Below are positions 9,545 through 55,597 of a stretch of DNA of 64,000 nt, piece after piece. The stretch is from NCBI GenBank assembly GCA_964016885.1, contig OZ024757.1, positions 23,188,001 to 23,252,000 on the forward strand, read 5' to 3'. The translations under genes were made by a program, and so were the position numbers. This DNA is from Eledone cirrhosa (taxonomy: Eukaryota). Within the stretch, counting starts at the first letter, position 1. Each line of letters opens with the position of its first letter. Under the pieces are notes generated by a model. It was given only the letters and a program-made list of their open reading frames with translations, was not told the origin of the DNA and did no database searches.

Positions 9545-9657
9545 TTATTTTTTCCTCATCTAATTTCTATGTAACCCACCACATTTTATATAATTTGTCT
9601 TTGTAATATTTCCTCATTTGGTGCCCTTGTGGCAAATTAAAGAAATCATCATCATCA
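9545..9657 (+). mobile_element. Short 3'-UTR relic of a Tx1-like element
   Basis: GTGCCCTTGTGGCAAATTAAAGAAATC(ATC)n resembles the 3' end of the full-length element. Confidence 0.5.
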
Positions 9658-10016
9658 ACGTTATTACTATTACTATTATTATGGTCTGAGTTCAAATCCC
9701 GCCGAGGTGAACTTTGCCTTTCATCCTTACGGGGTCGATAAAATAAAGTACCAGTAATGTACTGGGTAATTGCTGGCCTTCTGCCAAAAGTAGAAACAAT
9801 TATTATTATTATTATTATTGTTTTGGCAGAGCGTCAGACACCATACTTTGCAGCATAGTTATGGCCCTTTACGTTCTGAGTTCAAATCCCGCCATGGTTA
9901 GCTTTGCCTTTCATCCTTACGGGGTTGATAAAATAAAATAAAGTACCAGTAATGCACTGGAGTAATTGATGGCCTTGGGCCAAAAGTAGAAACAATTATT
10001 ATTATCATTATTAGAG

Positions 10017-10212
10017 GGGCGGTGGATTGGCAGTATTGGTAGAGGGTCGGACGCCATGCTTTCCAGCATAGAATTACGGCCCTTTATGGTCTGAGTTCAA
10101 ATCCCGCCGCGGTTAACTTTGCCTTTCATCCTTACGGGGTCGATAAAATAAAGTACCAGTAATGCACTGGGTAATTGCTGGCCTTGTGCCAAAAGTAGAA
10201 ACAATTATTATC
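10017..10212 (+). mobile_element. tRNA-derived SINE family A (representative). Other copies near 9680-10000, 12375-12545, 24187-24750, 29377-29800, 34113-34305, 45455-45632, 46608-46995, 48538-48722, 55840-56022, 63608-64000
   Basis: A-box TGGCAGTAT(C/T)GG, B-box GAGTTCAAATCC, central GCCTTTCATCCTTACGGGGTCGATAAAATAAAGTACCAG, tail GCCTTGTGCCAAAAGTAGAAACA(ATT)n. Confidence 0.88.
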
Positions 10213-10341: not shown

Positions 10342-10541
10342 NNNNNNNNNNNNNNNNNNNNNNNNNNNNNNNNNNNNNNNNNNNNNNNNNNNNNNNNNNN
10401 NNNNNNNNNNNNNNNNNNNNNNNNNNNNNNNNNNNNNNNNNNNNNNNNNNNNNNNNNNNNNNNNNNNNNNNNNNNNNNNNNNNNNNNNNNNNNNNNNNNN
10501 NNNNNNNNNNNNNNNNNNNNNNNNNNNNNNNNNNNNNNNNN
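10342..10541. other. Assembly gap (200 N)
   Basis: Run of N. Confidence 0.99.
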
Positions 10542-13466: not shown

Positions 13467-13735
13467 AGTTCAAACTCCACTGAGATATACTTTGCCTCTG
13501 ATGTTATGGTCAATTGCTGCCAGTGTCCGCACACTGTTGATACTGTATTGACTACTACTGCTACTGCAGCTGTTACTAGTTCAAACTCCACTGAGGTCTA
13601 CTTTGCCTCTGATGTTATGGTCAATTGCTGCCAGTGTCCGCACACTGTTGATACTGTATTGACTACTACTGCTACTACTACTGCAACTAATTCAAACTCC
13701 ACTGAGGTCTACTTTGACTTTCATCTTTTCAAGGT
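13467..13735 (+). repeat. 111-bp tandem duplication within a degenerate SINE-A
   Basis: ttcaaactccactgag recurs with a 111-bp period; 37-aa repeat in the ORF track. Confidence 0.8.
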
Positions 13736-13951
13736 TGATTATTAAAGTATTAGGCTTGTGCTGGTGTAATCATTTCCTCCCAGCTATAGCATCCTGTATG
13801 TTCACCTGTATTAACCCTTTACCATTTACATTACTCTATATATACTATTATATTTTTGCAGTAAAGGCTTTACCTCACATAATAATCTCCCATAATATTG
13901 AATCTATGAGATTTTGATATTTATTTTGAGAACAATACCTTTACCCTTTAG

Positions 13952-15610
13952 CATTCATATTGTTTTATATATACTATTATATTTTCATGGTAAATGCTTT
14001 ACCTCACATAATATCTCACATAACATTCACATTACTCTATATATACTATTATATTTTCATGGTAAAGGCTTTACCTCACATAATATCTCACATAACATTC
14101 ACATTACTCTAAATATACTATTATATTTTCAGAGTAATGGCTTTACCTCACATAATATCTCACATAACATTCACATTACTCTATATATACTATTGTATTT
14201 TCATGGTAAAGGCTTTACCTCACATAATATCTCACATAACATTCACATTACTCTATATATACTATTGTATTTTCATGGTAAAGGCTTTACCTCACATAAT
14301 ATCTCACATACCATTTACATTACTCTATATATACTATTGTATTTTCATGGTAAAGGCTTTACCTCACATAATATCTCACATAACATTCACATTACTCTAT
14401 ATTTACTATTATATTTTCATGGTAAAGGCTTTACCTAACATAATATCTCACATACCATTTACATTACTCTATATATACTATTGTATTTTCATTGTAAAGG
14501 CTTTACCTCACATAATATCTCACATAACATTCACATTACTCTGTATATACTATTATATTTTCATGGTAAAGGCTTTACCTCACATAATATCTCACATAAC
14601 ATTCACATTACTCTATATATACTATTGTATTTTCATGGTAAAGGCTTTACCTCACATAATATCTCACATAACATTCACATTACTCTATATATACTATTGT
14701 ATTTTCATGGTAAAGGCTTTACCTCACATAATATCTCACATACCATTTACATTACTCTATATATACTATTGTATTTTCATGGTAAAGGCTTTACCTCACA
14801 TAATATCTCACATAACATTCACATTACTCTATATTTACTATTATATTTTCATGGTAAAGGCTTTACCTAACATAATATCTCACATACCATTTACATTACT
14901 CTATATATACTATTGTATTTTCATGGTAAAGGCTTTACCTCACATAATATCTCACATAACATTCACATTACTCTGTATATGCTATTATATTTTCATGGTA
15001 AAGGCTTTACCTCACATAATATCTCACATAACATTCACATTACTCTATATATACTATTGTATTTTCATGGTAAAGGCTTTACCTCACATAATTATCTCAT
15101 AACATTCACATTACTCTGTATATACTATTATATTTTCATGGTAAAGGCTTTACCTCACATAATTATCTCACATAACATTCACATTACTCTATATATACTA
15201 TTATATTTTCATGGTAAAGGCTTTACCTAACATAATATCTCACATAACATTCACATTACTCTATATTTACTATTATATTTTCATGGTAAAGGCTTTACCT
15301 CACATAATATCTCACATAACATTCACATTACTCTATATATACTATTATATTTTCATGGTAAAGGCTTTACCTCACATAATATCTCACATAACATTCACAT
15401 TACTCTATATATACTATTATATTTTCATGGTAAAGGCTTTACCTCACATAATATCTCACATAACATTCACATTACTCTATATATACTATTGTATTTTCAT
15501 GGTAAAGGCTTTACCTCACATAATATCTCACATAACATTCACATTACTCTATATATACTATTATATTTTCATGGTAAAGGCTTTACCTCACATAATATCT
15601 CACATAACAT
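13952..15610 (+). repeat. 72-bp tandem satellite, left array (~23 units), containing a 432-bp higher-order repeat
   Basis: Unit cattcacattactctatatatactattatattttcatggtaaaggctttacctcacataatatctcacataa; translates as 24-aa repeats in the ORF track. Confidence 0.95.
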
Positions 15611-15821
15611 CTCGTATACGAGAGACGTGTGTTGACGTGTGTGAACAAGCTCGGCTACCGAGTCGGATTTACTTACTCAAAAAGTGAGTTTTGATTAATT
15701 TTTTTATACTGTAATATACGTTAACCCCTTGCCTTGGTCGTCAAACTTTGAGTTTATTTATTTTCGCCCCTTTTTGGGGCGAATTTTCCAGTTAAAAATT
15801 TATTACGGCAAACTAATAGAA

Positions 15822-17564
15822 ATGGACGGAATTTTCACATCTCATCCTAACGTGAAAGCCACGCCCCCTAAGAAAGGTGATACAGAGAAGCTAGAAGCAC
15901 AAGGCTCTAAGTCTTCCCTCCTCACTTCTGCAAAAGAAACATGGAACACGGAATTAAAAGAAAAATTTGTAGAAATGGGTGAAAACCCAGAAAGTCACAT
16001 AAACGCAGACAAAAACATCAACGACAATAACAGCAATAGTCACAACACCAACCAAGGAAAAAATAACGATAACACCAAACAAAGTGAACCCACTACTGGT
16101 ACCTCCTTTGCACAGGCGGTCCGGAAAACACAAACCTGCAAGCAACTGGACATTACAACTCTGAGAGAAAAGATGAAGGAAGCGAAACAGTATGTAACTT
16201 TCAAAGAAGGAGGAGACTTCACAATCACCTCCCCACAAGAAATCAAAAGAGACACGACGCTAAGAACGATATCTTTCAGAACAATTTCCAACATAACAAG
16301 GAAACCAACTCAATTATCCCAAAAAGAGATTGAGCTGGTCCTAAAAAATGTGTGGAGTGATATATCGTTCATACAAAAAGGGCCACTCTATGGGAATATA
16401 ACGGTCCTAATGAAGGATCAATTGACGGCCAGGAAATACTCTGTGGCACCAATTGTTTCCAAGATATATACATTTTTCCCCACATATTTAGGGAAAAGAA
16501 CGCAGAAGATAAGGGTCTCCGGAATCCGGCCAAATGCATGCATTTCCTGGGTACTAACAGGATTTTTAGAAGACGAGGACGGAATCCTCTCAGTAGGAGA
16601 AGTCACCACAGACGTTTTCGGCGGTTTGAGCGTGGAGGTTCTGGTCCAAATGAGACCAGAACGAATCGCTAGAATACCACAGAGGGTGTCCCTCGATGGA
16701 GAAACATTTATATATATTTCAGCCGAGGGTAGGAGGCCCATATGTTACTACTGTTCAAGCAGGGGTCATCTAAGGGCTGCTTGTCCTCAATTGACAAAAA
16801 AAAAGGCTCTTTTGCCTACACCCCACACACCACCACCGCCACCACCACCACCACCACCACCTCCACCACCACCACCACAACAACAACAAAAACAACAGGG
16901 AAAAATAACACAAGACACGGCCCCACCCAAAACAACTCCCAAAACACACACAAATACAACAAAACCCCAAAATACACCACTACCCGACAGCACGGACGAG
17001 GACCCAGCGGAAACGGCACCTAGTGACGAAGAGGGGGAACCCTTCCAACCTGTAAAAAGGAAAAAAAGAAAGCACCACTCGAACATAAACGAAACAAACA
17101 CACAACCACCAACAAAAACAAAACAAACAGAACAAACAAAATCCGCCCCACCCCAAAACATAACACATACAACAAAACGTAAGCACACACAAGAACAACA
17201 AACAAACACAACACAAATAAAACAGTATACATACATTAACACAAATAACAAAGAACTAGTAAAAACAATACACAAAGACCCTTTGGTGGAAACTGAAGGG
17301 CAATTCTTTGCAAGCGCGGCCAACAAACCGCATTTAAAAATGATAAGACTCCCAATGGACACCTATGCAAAACTAAGAGAGAACTTTCCTGAGGACGTGG
17401 GGAAAACATGTACTCGACCCTATAACCGCGTCCTCTTGAAACGTTTCCCCACCCACACCTCACCAAACACCCCCACTCCACCACAGAACAACACCCCACC
17501 AAACAACCCCTCCAATACGCCCATGGATATTGTGCAACCTGCTCCTCAGGAGCCGAACAGGTAG
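15822..17564 (+). CDS. Tx1-type ORF1 (gag-like nucleic-acid-binding protein), ~580 aa from the first ATG
   Basis: Open frame 15729-17564, first ATG at 15822. CX2CX4HX4C zinc knuckle (CYYCSSRGHLRAAC), poly-Pro/Gln tract, basic KRKKRK patch; lies directly upstream of ORF2. Confidence 0.88.
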   Translation: MDGIFTSHPNVKATPPKKGDTEKLEAQGSKSSLLTSAKETWNTELKEKFVEMGENPESHINADKNINDNNSNSHNTNQGKNNDNTKQSEPTTGTSFAQAVRKTQTCKQLDITTLREKMKEAKQYVTFKEGGDFTITSPQEIKRDTTLRTISFRTISNITRKPTQLSQKEIELVLKNVWSDISFIQKGPLYGNITVLMKDQLTARKYSVAPIVSKIYTFFPTYLGKRTQKIRVSGIRPNACISWVLTGFLEDEDGILSVGEVTTDVFGGLSVEVLVQMRPERIARIPQRVSLDGETFIYISAEGRRPICYYCSSRGHLRAACPQLTKKKALLPTPHTPPPPPPPPPPPPPPPPQQQQKQQGKITQDTAPPKTTPKTHTNTTKPQNTPLPDSTDEDPAETAPSDEEGEPFQPVKRKKRKHHSNINETNTQPPTKTKQTEQTKSAPPQNITHTTKRKHTQEQQTNTTQIKQYTYINTNNKELVKTIHKDPLVETEGQFFASAANKPHLKMIRLPMDTYAKLRENFPEDVGKTCTRPYNRVLLKRFPTHTSPNTPTPPQNNTPPNNPSNTPMDIVQPAPQEPNR

Positions 17565-17585
17565 GTCCTTCCTCTTTTAACCAAC

Positions 17586-20500
17586 ATGGCTGATATAAGA
17601 GTTGGGTTTCTGAATGTACGTGGCCTGGGACTGTCTTGGAAACAAGGCAAACTTTTAAACGATCTCAGGTCACATAGAATGGATGTAATGGCTATTTGCG
17701 AGTCCAGGATCAGCAGCGAGCACCAACTGGCGCCCCTCTTCGACGACTTTGAGATCTTCGCATCTCTCTGTCAACCGGGGGGTGGGGGTGGAGTTGTCGT
17801 TCTGCTGCGAAAACACCTGGGCCTCGCCATACAGAAGGTGCACCTGGACCCGGAGGGTCGACTGGTGGTTTTAGACGTCGGCAGTAGTGAAAGTGGAGCC
17901 CTTAGACTAATAGCTGTGTACGCCCCTTTTTGGGCAGCGCGGCCGGAATACTTCCAACGTCTGGAAACTTTTCTGGGAACGTCCCGCTCCTTGCTTTTAG
18001 TGGGGGACTGGAATGGTATCCTGGATGCACGTTGGGACTATGTAGGGGCATGTGCCAATAGAGGGGGGTGTAAAAGCCTCAAAAGGTTAATCGGCCGATT
18101 TGACCTGGCCGATAGATATCGACTAGATTTTCCGACTGTACCACTATGGACGTGGACCAATCGCAGTGGAACATCTAGGTCGTACCTAGATAGGGTCCTA
18201 GTTAGAGAGAACGATAGGGACACATTTAGCTGTCCAAAAATGTTCATGGTTGACTATTCGGATCACAAGTTAGTGACCTGCATAGCCAACCTTGATAGAA
18301 CCCATAGACAGGGACCCGGTTACTGGAAGCTGAACTTGTCCTTACCGAGAAGCAAAGCTTACAGTAAACGGATTAGCACGTTAGTTAAGCAGAATTTGAC
18401 AGGGGCAATTGTCAACAACAGGTGGTGGAGCTCTCTTAAGAGAGCAATTAGAATAGAATCGATAGGTTTTAGTCAGGAATTAGCAAGGGATAGGAACAAG
18501 ACGGAAAGGGAATTAGTAGATAGAGTAGAAGAGGCGATTAGGAGTGGCAATGTAGCCGGCGTGCTGGCATCAAGAATGGCCTTAGACCAGTTCTTTGAGG
18601 TGAAGCATGAAGGCTGCGTTGTCAGGAGTAAAATACGTGCTCTGGGTAATGAGGGAGCCAAAGCTGTAAGCTGGGCCCGAGTGACAGAGGCAAAAAGTGG
18701 GAACAAGTCCACGATTCGGTCTTTGAAGGACCAGGATGGGCGTGTGATCCTTGAACCTGGGCAGATGTGTGCGGCCTTTCAGCGGCACTTTGCACGACTG
18801 TTCGAGAGGGGCGGCGCGCCGGGTGAGACTATGGATTTCAATCCATACCTCGACGGTCTGCCGCGCCTCTCGGACGCGGAGGCGAAGTCCTGCGAAAGGA
18901 CGATTTCAGCTGCTGAGATAGGGGCGGCGCTGAGCCAATGCGGCAAACGCAAATCCCCGGGTCTCGATGGTCTACCATACGAGCTATATGTAGCGATGCC
19001 GGACTTGTTCTCCGATATCCTCGAAGCGGTCTACTGCAACTGGCAGCAGAACGGGAGAATTCCCAGTTCTGTGACCAAGGGCGTAGTTACGCTGGTGAGG
19101 AAGGATGAGAACAAGGGGGATGACATAAGTAACTTCAGGCCCATAACTCTGCTAAATACAGAGTTAAAGATTTTGGCCAAGGTGTTAGCGAAGAGGTTGG
19201 CGCTTGTCGTTGGAAACCTGGTGGGAGAAGCGCAGACATGCGCAATCCCGTCCAGGTCCATTCACGACAATCTCCACCTTATGCGATACATCATAGAGAG
19301 GGTAGGGAATGAACCCGGCTTTGGTGGGGCCCTGATCAACTTGGATCAATCTAAAGCTTTCGATAGGGTTGACCATCGTTACCTGGATGCGGTGCTCGCG
19401 GCGGCAGGCTTCGGACCCGTTTTCAGGGGTTGGATTGCTGCGATGCACAGCAGCAACGTCTGCTCAAGGGTCAAGGTGAACGGCCACCTCTCGGAGCCGT
19501 TCCAAATCATGCGATCCATCCGACAGGGATGCCCTCTCTCCTCCCTACTGTATGTGCTGGCTCTTGAGCCACTACTGCGGAAGTTGGAGCGGTTGCAGGG
19601 CATCCCTTTGGAACCGGGATTGCAGAAAGCGGCGTCGGCCTACGCCGATGACGTGACAGTAATGGTGTCGAAAACCTCGCAAATCGGTGAGATCGGCACC
19701 TTACTGGAGGAATATGAAAGGTTTACAGGAGCCAAGCTGAACCGGGACAAGTCCGTCGGTTTGCAACTCGGAACATGGAGAGGCAAACCGATGCCCTCCA
19801 ACGACGTCGTCGGACGCTGGACGGAGGGCCCGGTGAAGCTGCTTGGGGTCTGGTTCGGACCAGACCTCCAGGTGGAGAAAAACTGGAACGAGGTAACGGC
19901 CAGGGTGTTTGCACTCACCCAGAAGTGGGCCCAGTGCAAACTATCCCTGAAAGGTCGAGCGGAGGTGGCGAATACTTATATAGCATCCGTCATCTACTAC
20001 CGCTTGACCGTCGTGCCTTGCCCAGTGAAAAGACTCGCCAAAATGGAGTGCGCGCTGTTCCAATTTCTTTGGAACAAGCGGACCCCTTTGGTGAGGAGAT
20101 CCATCTGCTGTCAACACCCTTCGAAAGGAGGGCTGGGGATGCCGTGGCTACAGATGCGTAAACACGCATTAAGGCTACGGCACCTCCAGGTATTCCTCAC
20201 CGGTCAACCGGTGTGGGCCCCGTTTGTGAGGCGAGCCTTTCCCAGACTCGTCTCGCTCACCGAGCTGCAATCCTGGGTCAAGCAAAGACCGAGAAAAGTG
20301 GGCGACTGGCACATTGAATGTGCCCAGGCGCTCACGGCCCTCTGGAAAGCGGACCCGGCAATCAGTGGAGACTCCACCTCGACATTCTATAGAGGGTTGG
20401 TACGCAGCAGGTGCGACGATGCTCTCGGAGAAGCTCTAGGCATGGAGGAAGATGAACTGGCCAGTCTGTTCGGTAGGACGTTTGGCCCTGGACCGATGGA

Positions 20501-21023
20501 CAACTTCCAAAAGTCCCTGGCTTGGCAGTGCTACCGAGGGGCTCTACCCGTTCGAGACAAGCTCCACAGGCATGGGAGCCTGGGTAGAGATCCTTTGAAT
20601 AAGATCTGTCCGAGATGCGTGCATGATGACGAAACCGTTGCGCACGCATTCGTACACTGCCCAGGCATTGCTGACCTGTGGGGCTATGTGGAACGACTAC
20701 TGTCGAGGGTGGGACCAATCCGGTTGACCACCGAGTCCATTGTCACGATCAAACCGCCTCCCCCTTTCAAAAACGAAGGAGAGGCGGTTTTTCTCTGTGT
20801 GGTAGCCATGGCTAAAGAAGTTGTATGGTGGACGAGGCTGAAAGGGCTGAGGTCAGACACCTTTCTCTCCGGCCAACAACTGGTCCCCTTTTTCAAATAC
20901 CATTTTAAAAGAAGGATCAGAATGGAGAGAGAGGTGCTCTACCCCAGCAAGTTTTATGAAAGGTGGGTGAAAGTAGGGAGAATGGCCAGAGTGAATGGGT
21001 CTTCTCTCTATATCAGCCTGTAG
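17586..21023 (+). CDS. Tx1-type ORF2: APE endonuclease + reverse transcriptase + C-terminal zinc-binding domain, 1145 aa
   Basis: APE motifs (NVRGL, VYAP, GDWN, LDRV, SDH); RT motifs (KSPGLDG, FRPITLLN, DQSKAFDRV, RQGCPLS, YADD); C-terminal CPRC...HAFVHC; Tx1-like GYWKLN and KGGLG. No stops or frameshifts. Confidence 0.96.
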   Translation: MADIRVGFLNVRGLGLSWKQGKLLNDLRSHRMDVMAICESRISSEHQLAPLFDDFEIFASLCQPGGGGGVVVLLRKHLGLAIQKVHLDPEGRLVVLDVGSSESGALRLIAVYAPFWAARPEYFQRLETFLGTSRSLLLVGDWNGILDARWDYVGACANRGGCKSLKRLIGRFDLADRYRLDFPTVPLWTWTNRSGTSRSYLDRVLVRENDRDTFSCPKMFMVDYSDHKLVTCIANLDRTHRQGPGYWKLNLSLPRSKAYSKRISTLVKQNLTGAIVNNRWWSSLKRAIRIESIGFSQELARDRNKTERELVDRVEEAIRSGNVAGVLASRMALDQFFEVKHEGCVVRSKIRALGNEGAKAVSWARVTEAKSGNKSTIRSLKDQDGRVILEPGQMCAAFQRHFARLFERGGAPGETMDFNPYLDGLPRLSDAEAKSCERTISAAEIGAALSQCGKRKSPGLDGLPYELYVAMPDLFSDILEAVYCNWQQNGRIPSSVTKGVVTLVRKDENKGDDISNFRPITLLNTELKILAKVLAKRLALVVGNLVGEAQTCAIPSRSIHDNLHLMRYIIERVGNEPGFGGALINLDQSKAFDRVDHRYLDAVLAAAGFGPVFRGWIAAMHSSNVCSRVKVNGHLSEPFQIMRSIRQGCPLSSLLYVLALEPLLRKLERLQGIPLEPGLQKAASAYADDVTVMVSKTSQIGEIGTLLEEYERFTGAKLNRDKSVGLQLGTWRGKPMPSNDVVGRWTEGPVKLLGVWFGPDLQVEKNWNEVTARVFALTQKWAQCKLSLKGRAEVANTYIASVIYYRLTVVPCPVKRLAKMECALFQFLWNKRTPLVRRSICCQHPSKGGLGMPWLQMRKHALRLRHLQVFLTGQPVWAPFVRRAFPRLVSLTELQSWVKQRPRKVGDWHIECAQALTALWKADPAISGDSTSTFYRGLVRSRCDDALGEALGMEEDELASLFGRTFGPGPMDNFQKSLAWQCYRGALPVRDKLHRHGSLGRDPLNKICPRCVHDDETVAHAFVHCPGIADLWGYVERLLSRVGPIRLTTESIVTIKPPPPFKNEGEAVFLCVVAMAKEVVWWTRLKGLRSDTFLSGQQLVPFFKYHFKRRIRMEREVLYPSKFYERWVKVGRMARVNGSSLYISL

Positions 21024-21260
21024 GTGAAAGAAGAGGAAAAAGCGGAGACGAGGGAAGCACCTACTCTTTGTGCTCCTGAGGAGAAGGGTTACACATTTTT
21101 TCCGGGGTGTGTGCGACCCATGTTAATGCCCCCTCCCTATTGAGGACTTCGTTTGTTGTTGTTATTTCATTGTTATATTTTTGTACTCGTTAATTATATG
21201 TAAACTTCCCCCCTTGTATCTGTCCCTACCTTTTGTGCCCTAGTGGCAAATAAAGAAACC

Positions 21261-22100
21261 ACTCTATATATACTATTATATTTTCATGGTAAAGGCTTTA
21301 CCTAACATAATATCTCACATAACATTCACATTACTCTATATTTACTATTATATTTTCATGGTAAAGGCTTTACCTCACATAATATCTCACATAACATTTA
21401 CATTACTCTATATATACTATTATATTTTCATGGTAAAGGCTTTACCTAACATAATATCTCACATAACATTTACATTATATATACTATTGTATTTTCATGG
21501 TAAAGGCTTTACCTCACATAATATCTCACATAACATTCACATTACTCTATATATACTATTATATTTTCATGGTAAAGGCTTTACCTCACATAATATCTCA
21601 CATAACATTTACATTACTCTATATATACTATTATATTTTCATGGTAAAGGCTTTATCTCACATAATATCTCACATAACATTCACATTACTCTATATATAC
21701 TATTGTATTTTCATGGTAAAGGCTTTACCTCACATAATATCTCACATAACATTCACATTACTCTATATATACTATTGTATTTTCATGGTAAAGGCTTTAC
21801 CTCACATAATATCTCACATAACATTTACATTACTCTATAAATACTATTGTATTTTCACAGTAAAGGCTTTACCTCACATAACATTTACATTACTCTATAT
21901 TTACTATTATATTTTCATGGTAAAGGCTTTACCTCACATAATATCTCACATAACATTCACATTACTCTATATATACTATTGTATTTTCATGGTAAAGGCT
22001 TTACCTCACAATTACCTCACATAACATTTACATTACTCTATATATACTATTGTATTTTCATGGTAAATGCTTTACCTCACATAATTATCTCACATAATAT
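21261..22100 (+). repeat. 72-bp tandem satellite, right array (~11-12 units)
   Basis: Same unit resumes immediately after the LINE 3' end; a few units have internal deletions. Confidence 0.95.
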
Positions 22101-24860
22101 TGAATCTATGAGATTTCGAAAGTATTTATTTTGAGAACAATACCTTAACATCAGTTTGAGCAACCAGTTATGGCCAGTTTCAACAGAAAGAGGTAGAGAA
22201 TTGTGGCCGGTTCGTGCTGGTTTGAACACTAAAGGGTTAACATAAGTTTGAGTAGCCAGTTACAGCTGGTTATAGCTGGTTTGAACAGAGAGAATTCTGG
22301 CTGGATACGGCCAGTTAAAATACTAAACGGTTAAAGGAGGGAAGGTTGAGAGGGTATCTGTGTCTGCTCATGACTGCATGGGCACCTAAAACACATAACA
22401 AAAGCATGATACATACTACCAAGTCATACTCAATTGTGAGTGATGGCTGTAGACATATAAGAATACGATTCACTATCAAGATGTGGAATAATAACCAAGA
22501 ATATTTACTTAATGCACAGGTACAACAGCTGCTAAAACAGCTGTGAATTATGAATCCATGAGAGAGCCACTACATGGTCCTTATAGTGGCTAAAAAAAGC
22601 AGTTAAATATCTCTCAAATCACATCCTACCAAAGAACACATTGAGCACAGGTTGAAGCATACATCTAATGTGTACCTCCTCTTACCTCCCATGTCCTAAC
22701 ACTCTGCCCCTCATATATGCCAAAATACCCACCTCCCCAATCCCCACACACCTCTTCCACCAAAGTCCCCAGTCCACACTGTAAAGTGGTTAAGTAGATT
22801 TCACAACAAAAACACCCAGCTCACACTGTAAAGTGGTCATGTAGATGTCACAACAAAAAGCACCCAGTACTCATTGTAAATGAGGTTGGTGTTAGGAAGG
22901 GCATCCAGCCAGAAAAACCGAGCTAAAATCAGTTCTGTATGAGCAAGTCATGGTCACCTGACACAGCATTTTTCACAACAGGACAACTTGTCTAACCCAT
23001 GCAAGCATGGAATAAAATGGACGTTCAATAGTGATGATGATGATATATATATAACATCTTTGAGGATTTAGTGTTAAAGAATAAAAACTAATGATAAAAT
23101 AAAAATACACTTTTAAAAATGAGGCCCTTAAAGGTATGTGGCCCTAACCTATAGCTTATAGGTAAGTCCAGCATTTGACAGGGCAGACTTTCATCTAAAA
23201 AAATATTTTTTACATTAATGTTAATGATAAATAATAAATTATATTATATATTGTTTTTCATTGGGGATTTAGTGTCAAAGAATAAAAACTAATGTTAAAA
23301 TAAAAATGTTTTAAAATCATGAGGCCCATGAAGATGTGTGGTCCTAAGCTCTAACTTATTTAGCTCATAGAGAAGTCCAGCAGTGCAGGTAGGCTTCCAC
23401 ACAGTTTCCATCTACAAAATGTCACTGACAAAGCTTGGGTTGGCCTGAAACTATGGTAAATGACATTTGCCCAAGTTGTCACACAGTGGGATCTAACCAG
23501 GGACACCACAACTACAAAATAAACTTGTTAACCACTTGGCCATGATTTATAAACGACATGTCAGTATAAGTTATAACATTTCACATCAATTACTGCCATA
23601 TTAACTTAACATTAGATCTGCTGCTGTTGTTGTTGTTGTTTCTGCTAATTAATCTGCTGATGACTTAACTGTCAAGATGAGAAATCGGGAATTATTTAAA
23701 GGTTTATTCTATACTTGCACGTTTTGTTTTCAGTTGGTGTTTTAATATTTAGTTGTTTCTCTGATGTCATATATCCTGACATGTTTAGTTCACTTCAAGT
23801 ATGTATATAGAGAAGAATTAAATGTGTATGATGTGACAAAGGGATGAAGAAGATAGATGCTTGAAATGAGGTGAAAAAGAAACAGTAAAAACTAAAGGTC
23901 ATCAAGGTTTAGTGGCAATGTAGAAGACTTACTGTGGCATGAAATAAAGTGTGTAAGGATTGGGGAGTGGATATAAGGGGGTATAAGGGAGGAGTATATC
24001 TCAAACATGGTGGTTAATATTTGAAAATGTGAGAATGCCAAAATGCAGAAAATAACTGTAATAGTCGTTTTTACTTTTGGCATAAGGCCAGCAATTATCC
24101 CAGTGTAATAAAGTACCAGTAATACACTGGCATAATTTCTGGCATTGTGCCAAAAGTAGAAACAATTATTACAGTTATTTTCAAGGGTGGTAGATTGGCA
24201 GCATCGGTAGAGCGTCAATCACAACATGCTTTGCAGCATATGGTTACAGTCCTTTATGTTCTGACTTGAAATCCCGTTGAGGTTAACTTTGCCTTTCATC
24301 CTTACAGGCCAGTAATTTGGGAGGAGAGGGAAGTCAATTAAATCGACCCCCAGTACGTTACTGGTGCTTTATTTTATCAACCCCGTAAAGATGAAAGGCA
24401 AAACTAACCTCAGCAGGATTTGAACTCAGACCGTAAAGGGCCGTAACTCTATGCTGCAAGGCATGGTGTCTGACGCTCTACCAATACTGCCAATCCACCA
24501 CCCTATTAACCATATACATAATAATTGTTTCTACTTTTGGCACAAGGCCAGCAATTATCCCAGTGTATTACTGGTATTCAATCCGTAGGGCTGAAAGGCA
24601 TTACTGGTACTTTATTTTATTGACCCCACCCCCCTGTAAGGATGAAAGGCAAAGTTAACCTCGGTGGGATTTGAACTCAGAATGGCAAGGGCCGTAACTC
24701 TATGCGTCAAAGCATGGCGTCCGACCCTCTACCGATACTGCCAATCCACCGATAACTAAGAGTTGAGTAGAATATCTCTGGAGACAGAAAAATGTATCTT
24801 CTTTACTCTAGGAGTATTTTACCTGACCCCCAGCAATTATTTATGTTTCATAACTAGCCA

Positions 24861-25950
24861 TATGTGGGTTGGCTGAACAGTTCATAGGCTGACTAAGATA
24901 CTCTCTTGGAATAACAAAATGAGGTTTATTTTTCAACATAGTCTCTGGAAAGAAACATTGCAGTTCTTAATAAGAAGAATTGAAATTAATGCATGCAAGA
25001 TTTCACAGCACTTGCCTCACTCCTTCATAGTTAACCTATGACCAAGATACTCTCTTGGAATAACCAAATGAGGTTTATTTTTCAACATAGTCTCTGGAAA
25101 GAAACATTGCAGTTCTTAATAAGAAGAATTGAAATTAATGCATGCAAGATTTCACAGCACTTGCCTCACTCCTTCATAGTTAACCTATGACCAAGATACT
25201 CTCTTGGAATAACCAAATGAGGTTTATTTTTCAACATAGTCTCTGGAAAGAAACATTGCAGTTCTTAATAAGAAGAATTGAAATTAATGCATGCAAGATT
25301 TCACAGCACTTGCCTCACTCCTTCATAGTTAACCTATGACCAAGATACTCTCATGGAATAACCAAATGAGGTTTATTTTTCAACATAGTCTCTGGAAAGA
25401 AACATTGCAGTTCTTAATAAGAAGAGTTGAAATTAATGCATGCAAGATTTCACCGCCCTAGCCTCACTGCTTCAAAGTTAGTCTATGACCAAGATACTCT
25501 CTTGGAATAACCAAATGAGGTTTATTTTTCAACATAGTCTCTGGAAAGAAACATTGCAGTTATTAATAAGAAGAGTCGAAATTAATGCATGCAAGATTTC
25601 ACAGCTCTAGCCTACTTCCTTCATAGTTAACCTATGACCAAGATACTCTCATGGAATAACCAAATGAGGTTTATTTTTCAACATAGTCCCTCAAAAGAAA
25701 CATTGCAGTTCTTAATAAGAAGAGTTGAAATTAATGCATGCAAGATTTCACAGCTCCAGCATCAATCCTTCATAGGCTGACCAAGATACTCTCATGGAAT
25801 AACCAAATGAGGTTTATTTTTCAACATAGTCCCTGGAGAGAAACAATGCAGTTATTAATAAGAAGAGTTGAAATTAATGCATGCAAGATTTCCCAGCTCT
25901 TGCCTCACTGCTTCATAGTTAGCCTATGAACTTTTCAGCTCACCCTTGTA
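24861..25950. mobile_element. Tc1/mariner-type MITE internally expanded to ~7 x 149-bp tandem repeats
   Basis: Left end TA-tgtgggttggctgaacagttcataggctgac; right end reverse complement TA-caagggtgagctgaaaagttcataggctaac. Period 149 bp (accaagatac at 25041, 25190, 25339). Confidence 0.8.
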
Positions 25951-29799: not shown

Positions 29800-30192
29800 C
29801 CTGCCCAAATCGTGCCTAATTGCAGATGTAGCCTGCCCCTTTGACACGAGAGTGCAAGAAAAGGAGAGGGAGAAAATTAACGGATACCAGGATCTAAGGT
29901 GGGAGTTTAAAAGGATTTGAGACTGTCATGAGTTCAAGGTCGTCCCGATTGTCATAGGAGCCCTAGGTACTATCTCAAAGAGTTTCCATGTATGGTTAAA
30001 GAAGATTAGTCCAGCCCCGTTTTTTGGAACACTTCAAAAGGCATGCTTGCTGGGAACAGCAAGAACCCTCCGACACGTCCTGAATGTCTGAGGCTGCAGG
30101 TAGCAGCTTGATATCCATTTCAACAAACTTTCCAGTTAAATAACATCAATGACTGAGACTCAAAGAACAATAATGATAATAATAATAATAAT
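29800..30192 (+). mobile_element. 3' fragment of an R4/Dong-like LINE (restriction-like endonuclease C-terminus, 3'UTR, (AAT)n)
   Basis: Manual translation: IADVACPFD..EKEREK..YQDL..VVPIVIGALGT..LQKACLLGTARTLRHVL*. Confidence 0.75.
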
Positions 30193-30690
30193 GTGTTCTT
30201 TATTAACCACAAGGGTTGACAAAGTATAACATTAAGGAGAGCACAGGACGGTACAGGGCGGTACAAATGGGCATTTCTGTGTGTAAAAAACAAAAACAAA
30301 ATTGCATGTATAAGAAAGAAACAAGGAAAAATTCCCCCATACGAGGGAGACTTCCAAAGTTCACTCATGGAGAAAGCCCACAAAAAGGCCACAGTTTCCC
30401 TGACTGCAACAGCAAGCACCCTCTTCCAGTTTTCCTCTTATGATACTACAGGCACACGCTCAGGGCAGGCTCATACACACGGGCCATTCTTGCCTCTCTC
30501 ACTCCCCTTTCAACGAACTGGCTGGAAGGTAGCACTTCCCCGATTTTCCTTTTCAGGTGAAACCTGAAAAAGTTAATGAGGGTGTCACCAAAGAGGAAAG
30601 TACCCGTATTCAACCCTTGCTGACACGTCCACCATACGACCTCTTTTACCATGGCCACCAGGCAAATAAAAACTGCCTGCTCCTCCTGGA
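30193..30690 (-). mobile_element. 5'-truncated copy of a related Tx1 element inside an (AAT)n tract
   Basis: AVFICLVAMVKEVVWWT..TFLFG..FFRFHLKRK aligns with ORF2 C-terminus AVFLCVVAMAKEVVWWT..TFLSG..FFKYHFKRR; ends CCCTTGTGGTTAATAAAGAACAC(ATT)n. Confidence 0.85.
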
Positions 30691-31175
30691 TAATAATAAT
30701 AATAAGGATAATGATAATAATGATTTCTACTATAGGCACAAGGACAGCAATTTGGGGGAGGGGAAACTCAATTAAATCGACCCCAGTGAATCACTGGTGC
30801 TTTATTTTATCGACCAGGTAAGGAAGAAGGGCAAAGGTAACCCTGGCGGGATTTGAACTGTGGCTTCTGATATAGGCACAGGGCTAAAAATTTAAAGGGG
30901 AGGGGAAAATTTATTAAATCAACCACAGTACATTACTGGTACTTTATTTTATCAACCCTGTAAGGATGAAAGGCAAAGCTAAACTTGATGAGACTTGAAC
31001 TTAGAACATAAAAATGTTTGCCTGTAATAAGACCATTATTACTTACCGTTCAAATCCCGCCGAGGTTAACTTTGCCTTTCATCCTTACGGGATCAATAAA
31101 AATAAAGTACCAGCAATACTCTAATACTCTGGGATAATTGCTGGTTTTGTGCCAAAAGTAGAAACAATTATTACT

Positions 31176-55381: not shown

Positions 55382-55597
55382 TTAACACTTTAGCATTTAA
55401 ACTGATCGCATCTAACCAGAATTCTCTCACCCCTTTCTGTTCAAACCGACTGTACCTGGCTACTCATACTTATGTGAAGGTATTGTTCTCAAAATAAATA
55501 ATATCAAAATCACATAGCTTCGATATTATGTGAGATAAAGCCTTTACCATGAAAATACGATAGTAAATATAGAGTGATGCACATACTAAAGGGTTAA
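55382..55597 (-). mobile_element. Unexpanded ~216-bp TTAA MITE monomer, same family as 13811-22334
   Basis: Reverse complement: TTAACCCTTTAG...cactctatatttactatcgtattttcatggtaaaggctttatctcacataatatc...gagaacaatacc...CTAAAGTGTTAA, with one copy of the satellite-unit sequence. Confidence 0.85.

What the first reader, a model, noticed from the sequence alone, without database searches (positions are those of the whole stretch)
13811..22334. Four-level composite: TTAA MITE > same MITE > 72-bp satellite > intact Tx1 LINE, paralleling Xenopus Tx1C
Seen: outer MITE halves rejoin at a TTAA; the inner MITE has CCCTTTAG/CTAAAGGG termini, its 5' segment is tandemly amplified, and a complete Tx1 sits in the array. 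Known: Xenopus Tx1L/Tx2L LINEs insert specifically into internal tandem repeats of TTAA-duplicating DNA elements (Tx1D/Tx2D), forming composite elements. Inference: this may be an independent invertebrate case of a Tx1 LINE using a DNA-transposon-borne satellite as target, possibly mobile as an ~8.3-kb unit because both inner termini remain. One locus cannot separate targeting from chance.
Basis: partly seen in the sequence, partly recalled or inferred. Interest (0 to 1): 0.85.

Follow-up and report, generated by a model that had tools for sequence, protein, structure and literature searches.

The report
Octopod LINE targeting a MITE satellite
An intact jumping gene (LINE) sits in a 72-base repeat that likely grew inside a small DNA transposon nested in another copy of itself; data from other samples show this LINE family running into the same spot of the repeat, so it likely seeks the repeat as its landing site, as a frog element does, while movement of the whole 8.3-kb stack is untested.

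Summary
The four-level anatomy is real: a TTAA/CCCTTTAG (piggyBac-type) MITE sits at the internal TTAA of a same-family MITE; its positions 9-80 are amplified to about 35 units of 72 bp; an intact L1/Tx1-type LINE (15611-21258) interrupts one unit, with no short duplication (7 bp lost). The host is likely an octopod (Argonauta RT, 68%). No genome was held, so I laid public runs on it. In run X5, 84-92% of the family-specific 3'-UTR depth continues into the repeat at the same base. In X1 (another organism label), contigs lacking this copy's private changes enter the repeat at both ends, though by only 30 and 24 letters. Sister LINEs end in (ATT)n, (ATC)n or (ATCT)n. Best reading: a young site-specific LINE using the MITE-born repeat as target, convergent with Xenopus Tx1L/Tx1D and crocodilian Tx1-Mar. 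Movement as an 8.3-kb composite is neither shown nor excluded; here the LINE (0.6% diverged) looks much younger than the MITE ends (7-8%). Against: X2 shows no crossing, and one X11 locus leaves the repeat after 17 letters. This scan noted the same targeting on other pieces of this genome (e1-8671301, e1-9516603).

The parts
13811..13814 (.). TTAA target duplication of outer MITE (left)
   Evidence: sequence
13815..13939 (+). outer MITE, 5' half (decayed terminus CCCTTTAC; one 72-bp-type unit, 6 of 72 off the array majority)
13940..13943 (.). left copy of inner target site, reads TTTA (internal TTAA position of the outer MITE)
13944..22236 (+). inner MITE, CCCTTTAG...CTAAAGGG, 8,293 bp with array and LINE
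13952..15610 (+). left 72-bp array, 23 units, with 432-bp (6-unit) block repeats
15611..21258 (+). full-length L1/Tx1-type LINE; 5' boundary uncertain by about 4 bp; 3' end at AAAGAAA, no poly(A)
   Evidence: both X2 contigs end at 21258; sister tails diverge behind 21259
15822..17564 (+). ORF1, 580 aa, one CX2CX4HX4C knuckle at aa 308-321 (Pfam score below cut-off); look-alikes are CCHC/ZCCHC3-type RNA-binding proteins
17586..21023 (+). ORF2, 1145 aa: APE endonuclease, RT (YADD), C-terminal zinc motif; no RNase H match
21259..21260 (+). two bases (CC) between LINE end and repeat, also read in X5; part of the element's tail or of a target variant
21261..22101 (+). right 72-bp array, about 12 units, starting 7 bp downstream of the phase at which the left array stops
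22102..22236 (+). inner MITE 3' body with its own internal TTAA (22145-22148) and right terminus
22237..22240 (.). TTAA, right copy of inner target site
22241..22330 (+). outer MITE, 3' half (decayed terminus CTAAACGG)
22331..22334 (.). TTAA target duplication of outer MITE (right)
55382..55597 (-). unexpanded monomeric member of the same MITE family (208 bp plus TTAA on both sides); reference for the unit's origin

Best explanation
A full-length L1/Tx1-type LINE sits in a 72-bp repeat inside a piggyBac-type MITE, and its family likely inserts by target-primed reverse transcription at one position of that repeat, with its own endonuclease predicted to choose the site. Shown: the anatomy; the monomeric MITE that carries the unit once; the same 3' junction in most of the family's depth in X5; the same 5' and 3' phase in X1. 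Inferred order at this locus: outer MITE, then inner MITE at the internal TTAA, then expansion of MITE positions 9-80 with 432-bp block duplications, then LINE insertion in place. Inferred chemistry: a first nick in front of ACTCTAT and a second nick 7 bp upstream, giving a small deletion rather than a duplication. The RNA likely carries about 17 nt of target at its 3' end to prime the reaction. The lineage likely came from microsatellite-targeting relatives by a shift to a similar motif in an abundant non-coding repeat, a safe-haven strategy. The 8.3-kb stack is then a by-product, not a unit of transposition.
For:: X5 depth 2560-2583 at 21163-21186, then 2569, 2374, 2160 past the end (0.84-0.92 in the last two bins); only 249 of 2551 differ at 21261. 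X1 contigs 15581-16183 and 20945-21282 enter the repeat in the window's phase; all 9 differences in X1's first two ORF1-region contigs are shared with X4 and X5, so X1 is unlikely to be this copy's orthologue (0.5^9 = 0.002 under equal rates); the X4 3' contig runs to 21272. The family is young (0.55-0.68% from long contigs) and mostly full length (ORF1-region contigs 1959-2244 against 2487 in the 3' UTR). Chance is low: the family covers 0.4% of the rest of the window, and tandem joints are 108 reads against 5,773 monomer starts in X11 (the two counts follow different rules). Sister 3' ends are followed by (ATC)n, (ATT)n and (ATCT)n. Insertion in place: the variant pair seen at units 15176/15248 recurs six units later across the LINE (noticed after the fact); MITE terminal units are 5 of 72 and 6 of 72 from the array majority.
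Against: No assembly was held, so no copies were counted; summed contig depth is not a copy number, and the kind of X4 and X5 is not on record. X1 and X4 reach only 30, 24 and 14 letters into the repeat, short of the tool's 31-letter rule for a bridge. X2 (organism B) has a 0-difference contig that stops at 21258 with no crossing, and X8 gave nothing. In X11 raw reads, 16 go into (ATCT)n behind 21259 and 12 leave the repeat behind 21275; only about 7 reads of depth reach the last bin. I assign the first group to sister families because reads there carry other letters at 21227-21248, but did not prove it. Near-uniform full length and a uniform junction also fit DNA-level copying. No endonuclease assay.
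Confidence: 0.7

Rival explanations
1. Hitchhiking composite: the LINE entered the array once or a few times, and a piggyBac transposase then moved MITE + array + LINE as one unit, which made most copies.
For: Both inner termini are intact; copies are mostly full length with a uniform junction; TAAA, the complement of TTTA, is a reported piggyBac target variant (PMC10813416 passages), so the imperfect left site does not exclude a recent move; old-looking ends could come from an old donor.
Against: No second composite was seen. This copy's private LINE letters are absent from X1, X4 and X5 contigs at 16085, 16101 and 16715 (contigs drop rare variants). The 3'-UTR depth exceeds the ORF1 depth by about one sixth in X5, as truncated insertions would give, but X4 shows the opposite trend. 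One X11 locus has the LINE end plus 17 target letters outside the MITE.
Confidence: 0.12
2. Motif-level targeting: the endonuclease and an RNA tail recognise only about 15 bp (ACTCTATATATACTA-like); the MITE is merely the commonest supplier of that motif, and neither array nor transposon context matters.
For: 12 X11 reads follow the repeat to 21275 and then enter a different sequence; sister tails share TCTAT or CACATT seeds with the site.
Against: Both 5' junctions seen (window, X1) have the tandem-type flank (unit end + CAT), although monomers dominate the family; the X11 case is probably one RAD locus and may be a diverged sister.
Confidence: 0.1
3. One or a few LINE-bearing arrays were multiplied by unequal crossing-over or segmental duplication, or the high depth comes from one enriched or transcribed locus.
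For: The array shows block duplications; the library kind of X4 and X5 is unknown; depth is not copy number.
Against: The window copy is embedded in non-tandem flanks and is 0.6% from the letters in the runs; the junction is seen in two organism labels and, weakly, in genomic RAD reads.
Confidence: 0.06
4. Chance: an unspecific or microsatellite-seeking LINE fell once into an AT-rich array.
For: X2 shows no crossing; (ATCT)n tails occur in X11.
Against: 84-92% of family-specific depth in X5 continues into the repeat; X1 has the same phase at both ends.
Confidence: 0.02

Closest known systems
Xenopus laevis Tx1L in Tx1D (Tx1C composite)
   Same: APE-type LINE inserted in a non-autonomous piggyBac-type element (PMC4494074, PMC1950540, PMC6719617 passages). 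That Tx1L sits in an internal tandem repeat is recalled from Garrett 1989 / Christensen 2000, which I could not read (for the latter).
   Different: Likely octopod host; about 210-bp MITE with a 72-bp unit; no short target duplication (Tx1L's 23 bp is recalled); the endonuclease beta-hairpin is L1-length, two residues shorter than the Tx1L loop grafted in PDB 2v0r; sisters end in microsatellites, so convergence is likelier than shared descent (inference).
Crocodilian Tx1-Mar (Mariner-N4_AMi) and Tx1-9_AMi (Harbinger)
   Same: Tx1 families that prefer a DNA transposon; hitchhiking was raised and tested there with 5'-truncated SINEU-3 copies (PMC4494074 sections 14, 15).
   Different: Different target superfamily; those targets are not described as tandem arrays in the sections read; the elements there are old, this family is about 0.6% diverged.
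Microsatellite-targeting Tx1 (Kibi, Koshi, crocodilian (TTCC)n families)
   Same: Same behaviour as the sister LINEs here, which end in (ATT)n, (ATC)n, (ATCT)n (PMC4494074 passages).
   Different: This family's junction is a complex 72-bp unit.
MITE-born satellites: Xmix/Xstir and miDNA4 of Xenopus
   Same: An internal MITE segment amplified into a tandem array (PMC6004289, PMC9659126 passages).
   Different: Xmix is Kolobok-type (AGGRR ends) and miDNA4 Tc1/Mariner-type; no LINE targeting is mentioned in the passages read.
Coral CMITEs; Tourist-in-Tourist nesting
   Same: piggyBac-related MITEs that form arrays (PMC2872659 abstract); MITEs that insert into their own kind (PMC6719617 passage).
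   Different: No LINE layer.

Membership tests
Tx1 clade LINE | ORF2 with N-terminal APE, RT and C-terminal zinc motif, no RNase H | tested here: met
   Pfam Exo_endo_phos 2e-12, RVT_1 1.7e-27, zf-RVT 2e-6, no RNase H hit; best PDB match human L1 ORF2p, E 3e-53. Shared with the L1 clade, so not specific.
Tx1 clade LINE | ORF1 with gag-like CCHC knuckle (feature recalled) | tested here: met
   One CX2CX4HX4C; zf-CCHC E 0.007, below Pfam cut-off; Atlas look-alikes at 0.90-0.93 carry zf-CCHC / ZCCHC3 RBD (a lead).
Tx1 clade LINE | RT groups with named Tx1 elements in a tree | tested here: inconclusive
   31 rows (30 of 31 chosen homologues kept; the Coffea row was too short). The window groups with Argonauta and one NCBI protein (99/98), inside an animal-plus-unnamed group with carp and Muraenolepis rows, apart from plant rows; no named Tx1 or human L1 row was available (searches gave no such names).
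Tx1 clade LINE | Target-sequence preference (Kojima's rule: over 20% of flanks of one type) | tested here: met
   84-92% of family-specific depth in X5; a depth proxy, not a count of copies.
Xenopus Tx1L/Tx1D system | Target is a non-autonomous piggyBac-type element | tested here: met
   TTAA plus CCCTT ends; Tx1D so classed in PMC4494074.
Xenopus Tx1L/Tx1D system | Insertion in an internal tandem repeat of the target (recalled) | tested here: met
   X1 5' flank is of the tandem type
Xenopus Tx1L/Tx1D system | Defined target-site duplication (23 bp, recalled) | tested here: not met
   7 bp of the unit are missing; the alternative 65-bp duplication differs at a recurring array variant.
Xenopus Tx1L/Tx1D system | Extended 11-residue endonuclease beta-hairpin | tested here: not met
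   Aligns without gaps to the L1-EN loop and with a two-residue gap to the Tx1L loop in 2v0r (PMC1950540 passages).
Xenopus Tx1L/Tx1D system | Endonuclease nicks the target specifically in vitro | not testable with these tools
   needs purified protein
Mobile composite (Tx1C-like unit) | Whole composites at several TTAA sites with shared ends | not testable with these tools
   no genome; short-read contigs do not span it
piggyBac-type MITE | TTAA duplication and CCC(TT) termini | tested here: met
   three copies in the window; CCCTT is the most conserved TIR start in PMC10813416
piggyBac-type MITE | High copy number of short non-coding copies | tested here: met
   5,773 X11 reads carry the TTAA + terminus directly before the unit; RAD reads, so not a copy count
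piggyBac-type MITE | Autonomous partner with matching termini | not tested
   no genome held; not searched
Kolobok / T2-MITE (Xmix) | Terminal AGGRR motif | tested here: not met
   termini start CCC (definition in PMC6004289)

The most novel reading that the evidence does not exclude
The LINE targets only the tandem form of the MITE repeat, and LINE-bearing MITEs are then moved whole by a piggyBac transposase, so that one retrotransposon family spreads by two routes, copy-and-paste and cut-and-paste. This would be an invertebrate case of the mobile composite proposed for Xenopus Tx1C, young enough to test from one assembly.
Probability: 0.12. Interest if true: 0.78.

Novelty: new member of a known kind. 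Interest (0 to 1): 0.5.

Why it matters
Tx1 LINEs that target DNA transposons were found in my searches only for Xenopus and crocodilians; ten paper searches and passages of two cephalopod repeat papers showed no octopod case, but Repbase, Dfam and most subscription papers were not searchable. If right, it is an independent return to the Tx1L/Tx1D arrangement in a mollusc. Close sisters with microsatellite targets make it a natural series for asking how an APE endonuclease changes target. An intact, young copy offers a candidate site-specific endonuclease. The family is young enough that one long-read assembly can separate repeated targeting from hitchhiking of composites.

Tried and rejected
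The LINE 3'-end pattern had 0 matches in metagenome contigs; ORF2 had no relative in viral contigs; the 71 metagenome loci are distant (mostly under 35% identity) and 0 of 71 hold the repeat motif. X8 gave no record at the 3' end. Cluster look-ups gave no Tx1-named protein. Christensen 2000 is not held; 'Tx1C' occurs in no held paper together with 'composite' and 'Xenopus'. Folding of the 3' junction, 5' junction and unit gave nothing beyond shuffles (z -0.06, -1.69, -0.80). The element behind the off-target X11 locus has no copy in the window. Rejected: a 65-bp target duplication (the unit right of the LINE carries an array variant absent from the unit on its left, and fits the 6-unit period); Kolobok/T2 class; the LINE remnants at 9.6 and 30 kb as refuting copies (the 30-kb one is 52% identical over 83 aa; both are sisters); TTTA as proof of old age (it is a known target variant). 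Sequence look-ups in earlier findings gave nothing relevant. No supplements were opened; figs S3-S5 of PMC4494074 list Tx1 targets and may bear on novelty.
Full report
Anatomy. An outer element starts after TTAA at 13815, breaks at 13939, resumes at 22241 and ends at 22330 before TTAA. Rejoined it is 219 bp and aligns end to end with a 208-bp unexpanded copy at 55386-55593(-), itself flanked by TTAA. The inner element (13944-22236, 8,293 bp) has perfect 8-bp termini CCCTTTAG/CTAAAGGG and sits at the family's internal TTAA position; the left copy of that site reads TTTA. TTAA with CCCTT ends is the piggyBac signature (PMC10813416, passages) and not the AGGRR of Kolobok/T2-MITEs (PMC6004289, passages). 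The 72-bp unit is MITE positions 9-80, present once in the outer copy and, without its 12-bp sub-repeat, once in the monomer; here it stands as 23.0 + 11.9 copies. The 27 units of exactly 72 bp differ 2.3% from their majority, and variants recur at a 432-bp period. In raw reads of X11, 5,773 reads have the TTAA and terminus directly before the unit, and 108 show the tandem joint (different detection rules), so arrays are likely the minority form. Satellites born inside MITEs are known (Xmix/Xstir, miDNA4, passages).

The LINE. It runs 15611-21258. ORF1 (580 aa) has one CCHC knuckle; ORF2 (1145 aa) has APE, RT and a C-terminal zinc motif, with catalytic motifs present and no RNase H hit. The best solved relative is human L1 ORF2p. 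The nearest named RT is from Argonauta hians, 68%, so the host is likely an octopod; L1-Tx1 families are listed as recently active in Octopus vulgaris (PMC13282606, passages). A tree of 31 RT rows puts it with Argonauta and apart from plant rows but holds no named Tx1, so Tx1 membership is likely, not proven. The 3' end is fixed at AAAGAAA by both X2 contigs ending at 21258 and by sister tails. The interrupted unit lacks 7 bp and has CC after the LINE. A 65-bp duplication would look the same in an array, but the right-hand unit carries an array variant that the left-hand one lacks, and with the next unit it repeats the pair seen six units earlier. I noticed this after the fact; it suggests insertion into an existing array.

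Is it targeted? No genome was held, so I used public runs: 13 listed, 6 laid, from four studies. On 21043-21282, X5 has depth 2560-2583 in the family-specific part of the 3' UTR and 2569, 2374, 2160 in the three bins past the LINE end, that is 0.92 and 0.84 in the last two; 249 of 2551 read another letter at 21261. In X1, a different organism label, contigs cover 15581-16183 and 20945-21282, entering the repeat in the window's phase at both ends; X4's 3' contig reaches 21272. All 9 differences of X1's first two ORF1-region contigs from the window are shared with X4 and X5, so these are other copies or the family majority, not this locus (0.002 under equal rates). The window copy is 0.55-0.68% from the long contigs, and ORF1-region depth in X5 is 0.84 of 3'-UTR depth, so the family is young and mostly full length. 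Limits: depth is not copy number; the library kind of X4 and X5 is not recorded; the crossings reach 30, 24 and 14 letters, under the tool's 31-letter rule. Results against: X2 (organism B) shows a perfect 3'-UTR contig that stops at the LINE end with no crossing; X8 gave nothing; in X11, 16 reads continue into (ATCT)n, 12 leave the repeat behind 21275, and only about 7 reads of depth reach the last bin. Other letters at 21227-21248 suggest sister families for many of those reads, unproven.

Mechanism. I commit to site-specific target-primed reverse transcription (0.70). Established for the group: APE-encoding Tx1 elements often have target preference set mainly by the endonuclease (PMC4494074 and PMC4640811, passages), and Tx1L-EN nicks its site almost exclusively (PMC1950540, passages). 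Inferred here: a first nick in front of ACTCTAT, a second 7 bp upstream, and a short target-derived RNA tail. Both 5' junctions seen have the tandem-type flank although monomers dominate, which hints that the array junction matters, but n is 2. The sisters' tails share short seeds with the site, so a shift from a microsatellite target is plausible (inference).

The composite. Nothing here shows the 8.3-kb unit moving. The MITE terminal units are 5 and 6 of 72 from the array majority against 0.6% for the LINE, and this copy's private LINE letters are not seen in contigs of three runs. Both fit late insertion in place, but an old donor composite would also have old ends, and TTTA/TAAA is a reported target variant. 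Hitchhiking was excluded for crocodilian SINEU-3 by 5'-truncated copies (PMC4494074 section 14); the same test needs an assembly here. I give it 0.12. The MITE-in-MITE level needs no special cause; nesting of like MITEs is known (PMC6719617, passage).

Comparison and novelty. It works like Xenopus Tx1L in Tx1D, a non-autonomous piggyBac element, and like crocodilian Tx1-Mar and Tx1-9_AMi. It is not filed as a member of the Tx1L system: no short duplication, and an L1-length endonuclease hairpin. Details of Tx1C, its internal repeats and the 23-bp duplication are recalled; Christensen 2000 was not held and Garrett 1989 was seen only as a reference. PMC2872659 was seen as abstract and outline, PMC8967140 as passages. 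Ten searches showed no octopod case; Repbase, Dfam and supplements were not seen. Earlier notes of this scan report the same targeting on two other pieces of this genome; they are unchecked AI notes whose loci I could not read, and I do not count them as support.

Verdict. Observation confirmed; targeting likely; composite mobility open. New member of a known kind, likely convergent; interest 0.5.

Noticed in passing
window 17531-17572 and 21053-21095: The end of ORF1 and the start of the LINE 3' UTR are reverse-complementary (43 bp, 79%), and the ORF1 stop lies in a splice-donor-like AG|GTAGGT.
   Followed up: no
window 30165-30720 (-): 5'-truncated sister LINE (52% over the last 83 aa of ORF2) with (ATT)n on both sides.
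   Followed up: partly
window 9560-9660 (+): Short 3' end of a sister LINE (or a SINE with such a tail) followed by (ATC)n.
   Followed up: partly
window 15610-15623: A perfect 14-bp palindrome at the LINE 5' junction; X1's contig has it too.
   Followed up: partly
run X11, behind window 21275: 12 reads follow the LINE end and 17 target letters, then enter another sequence that recalls a Helitron-type start (from memory, untested); probably one RAD locus.
   Followed up: partly
window 9680-10200: Four near-tandem copies of a SINE-like unit separated by (ATT)n.
   Followed up: no
window 24890-25929; 13467-13716: Other tandem arrays: 7 copies of 149 bp and 2.3 copies of 111 bp, the latter just left of the outer MITE.
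   Followed up: no
window 10342-10541: 200-base N gap, outside the finding.
   Followed up: no
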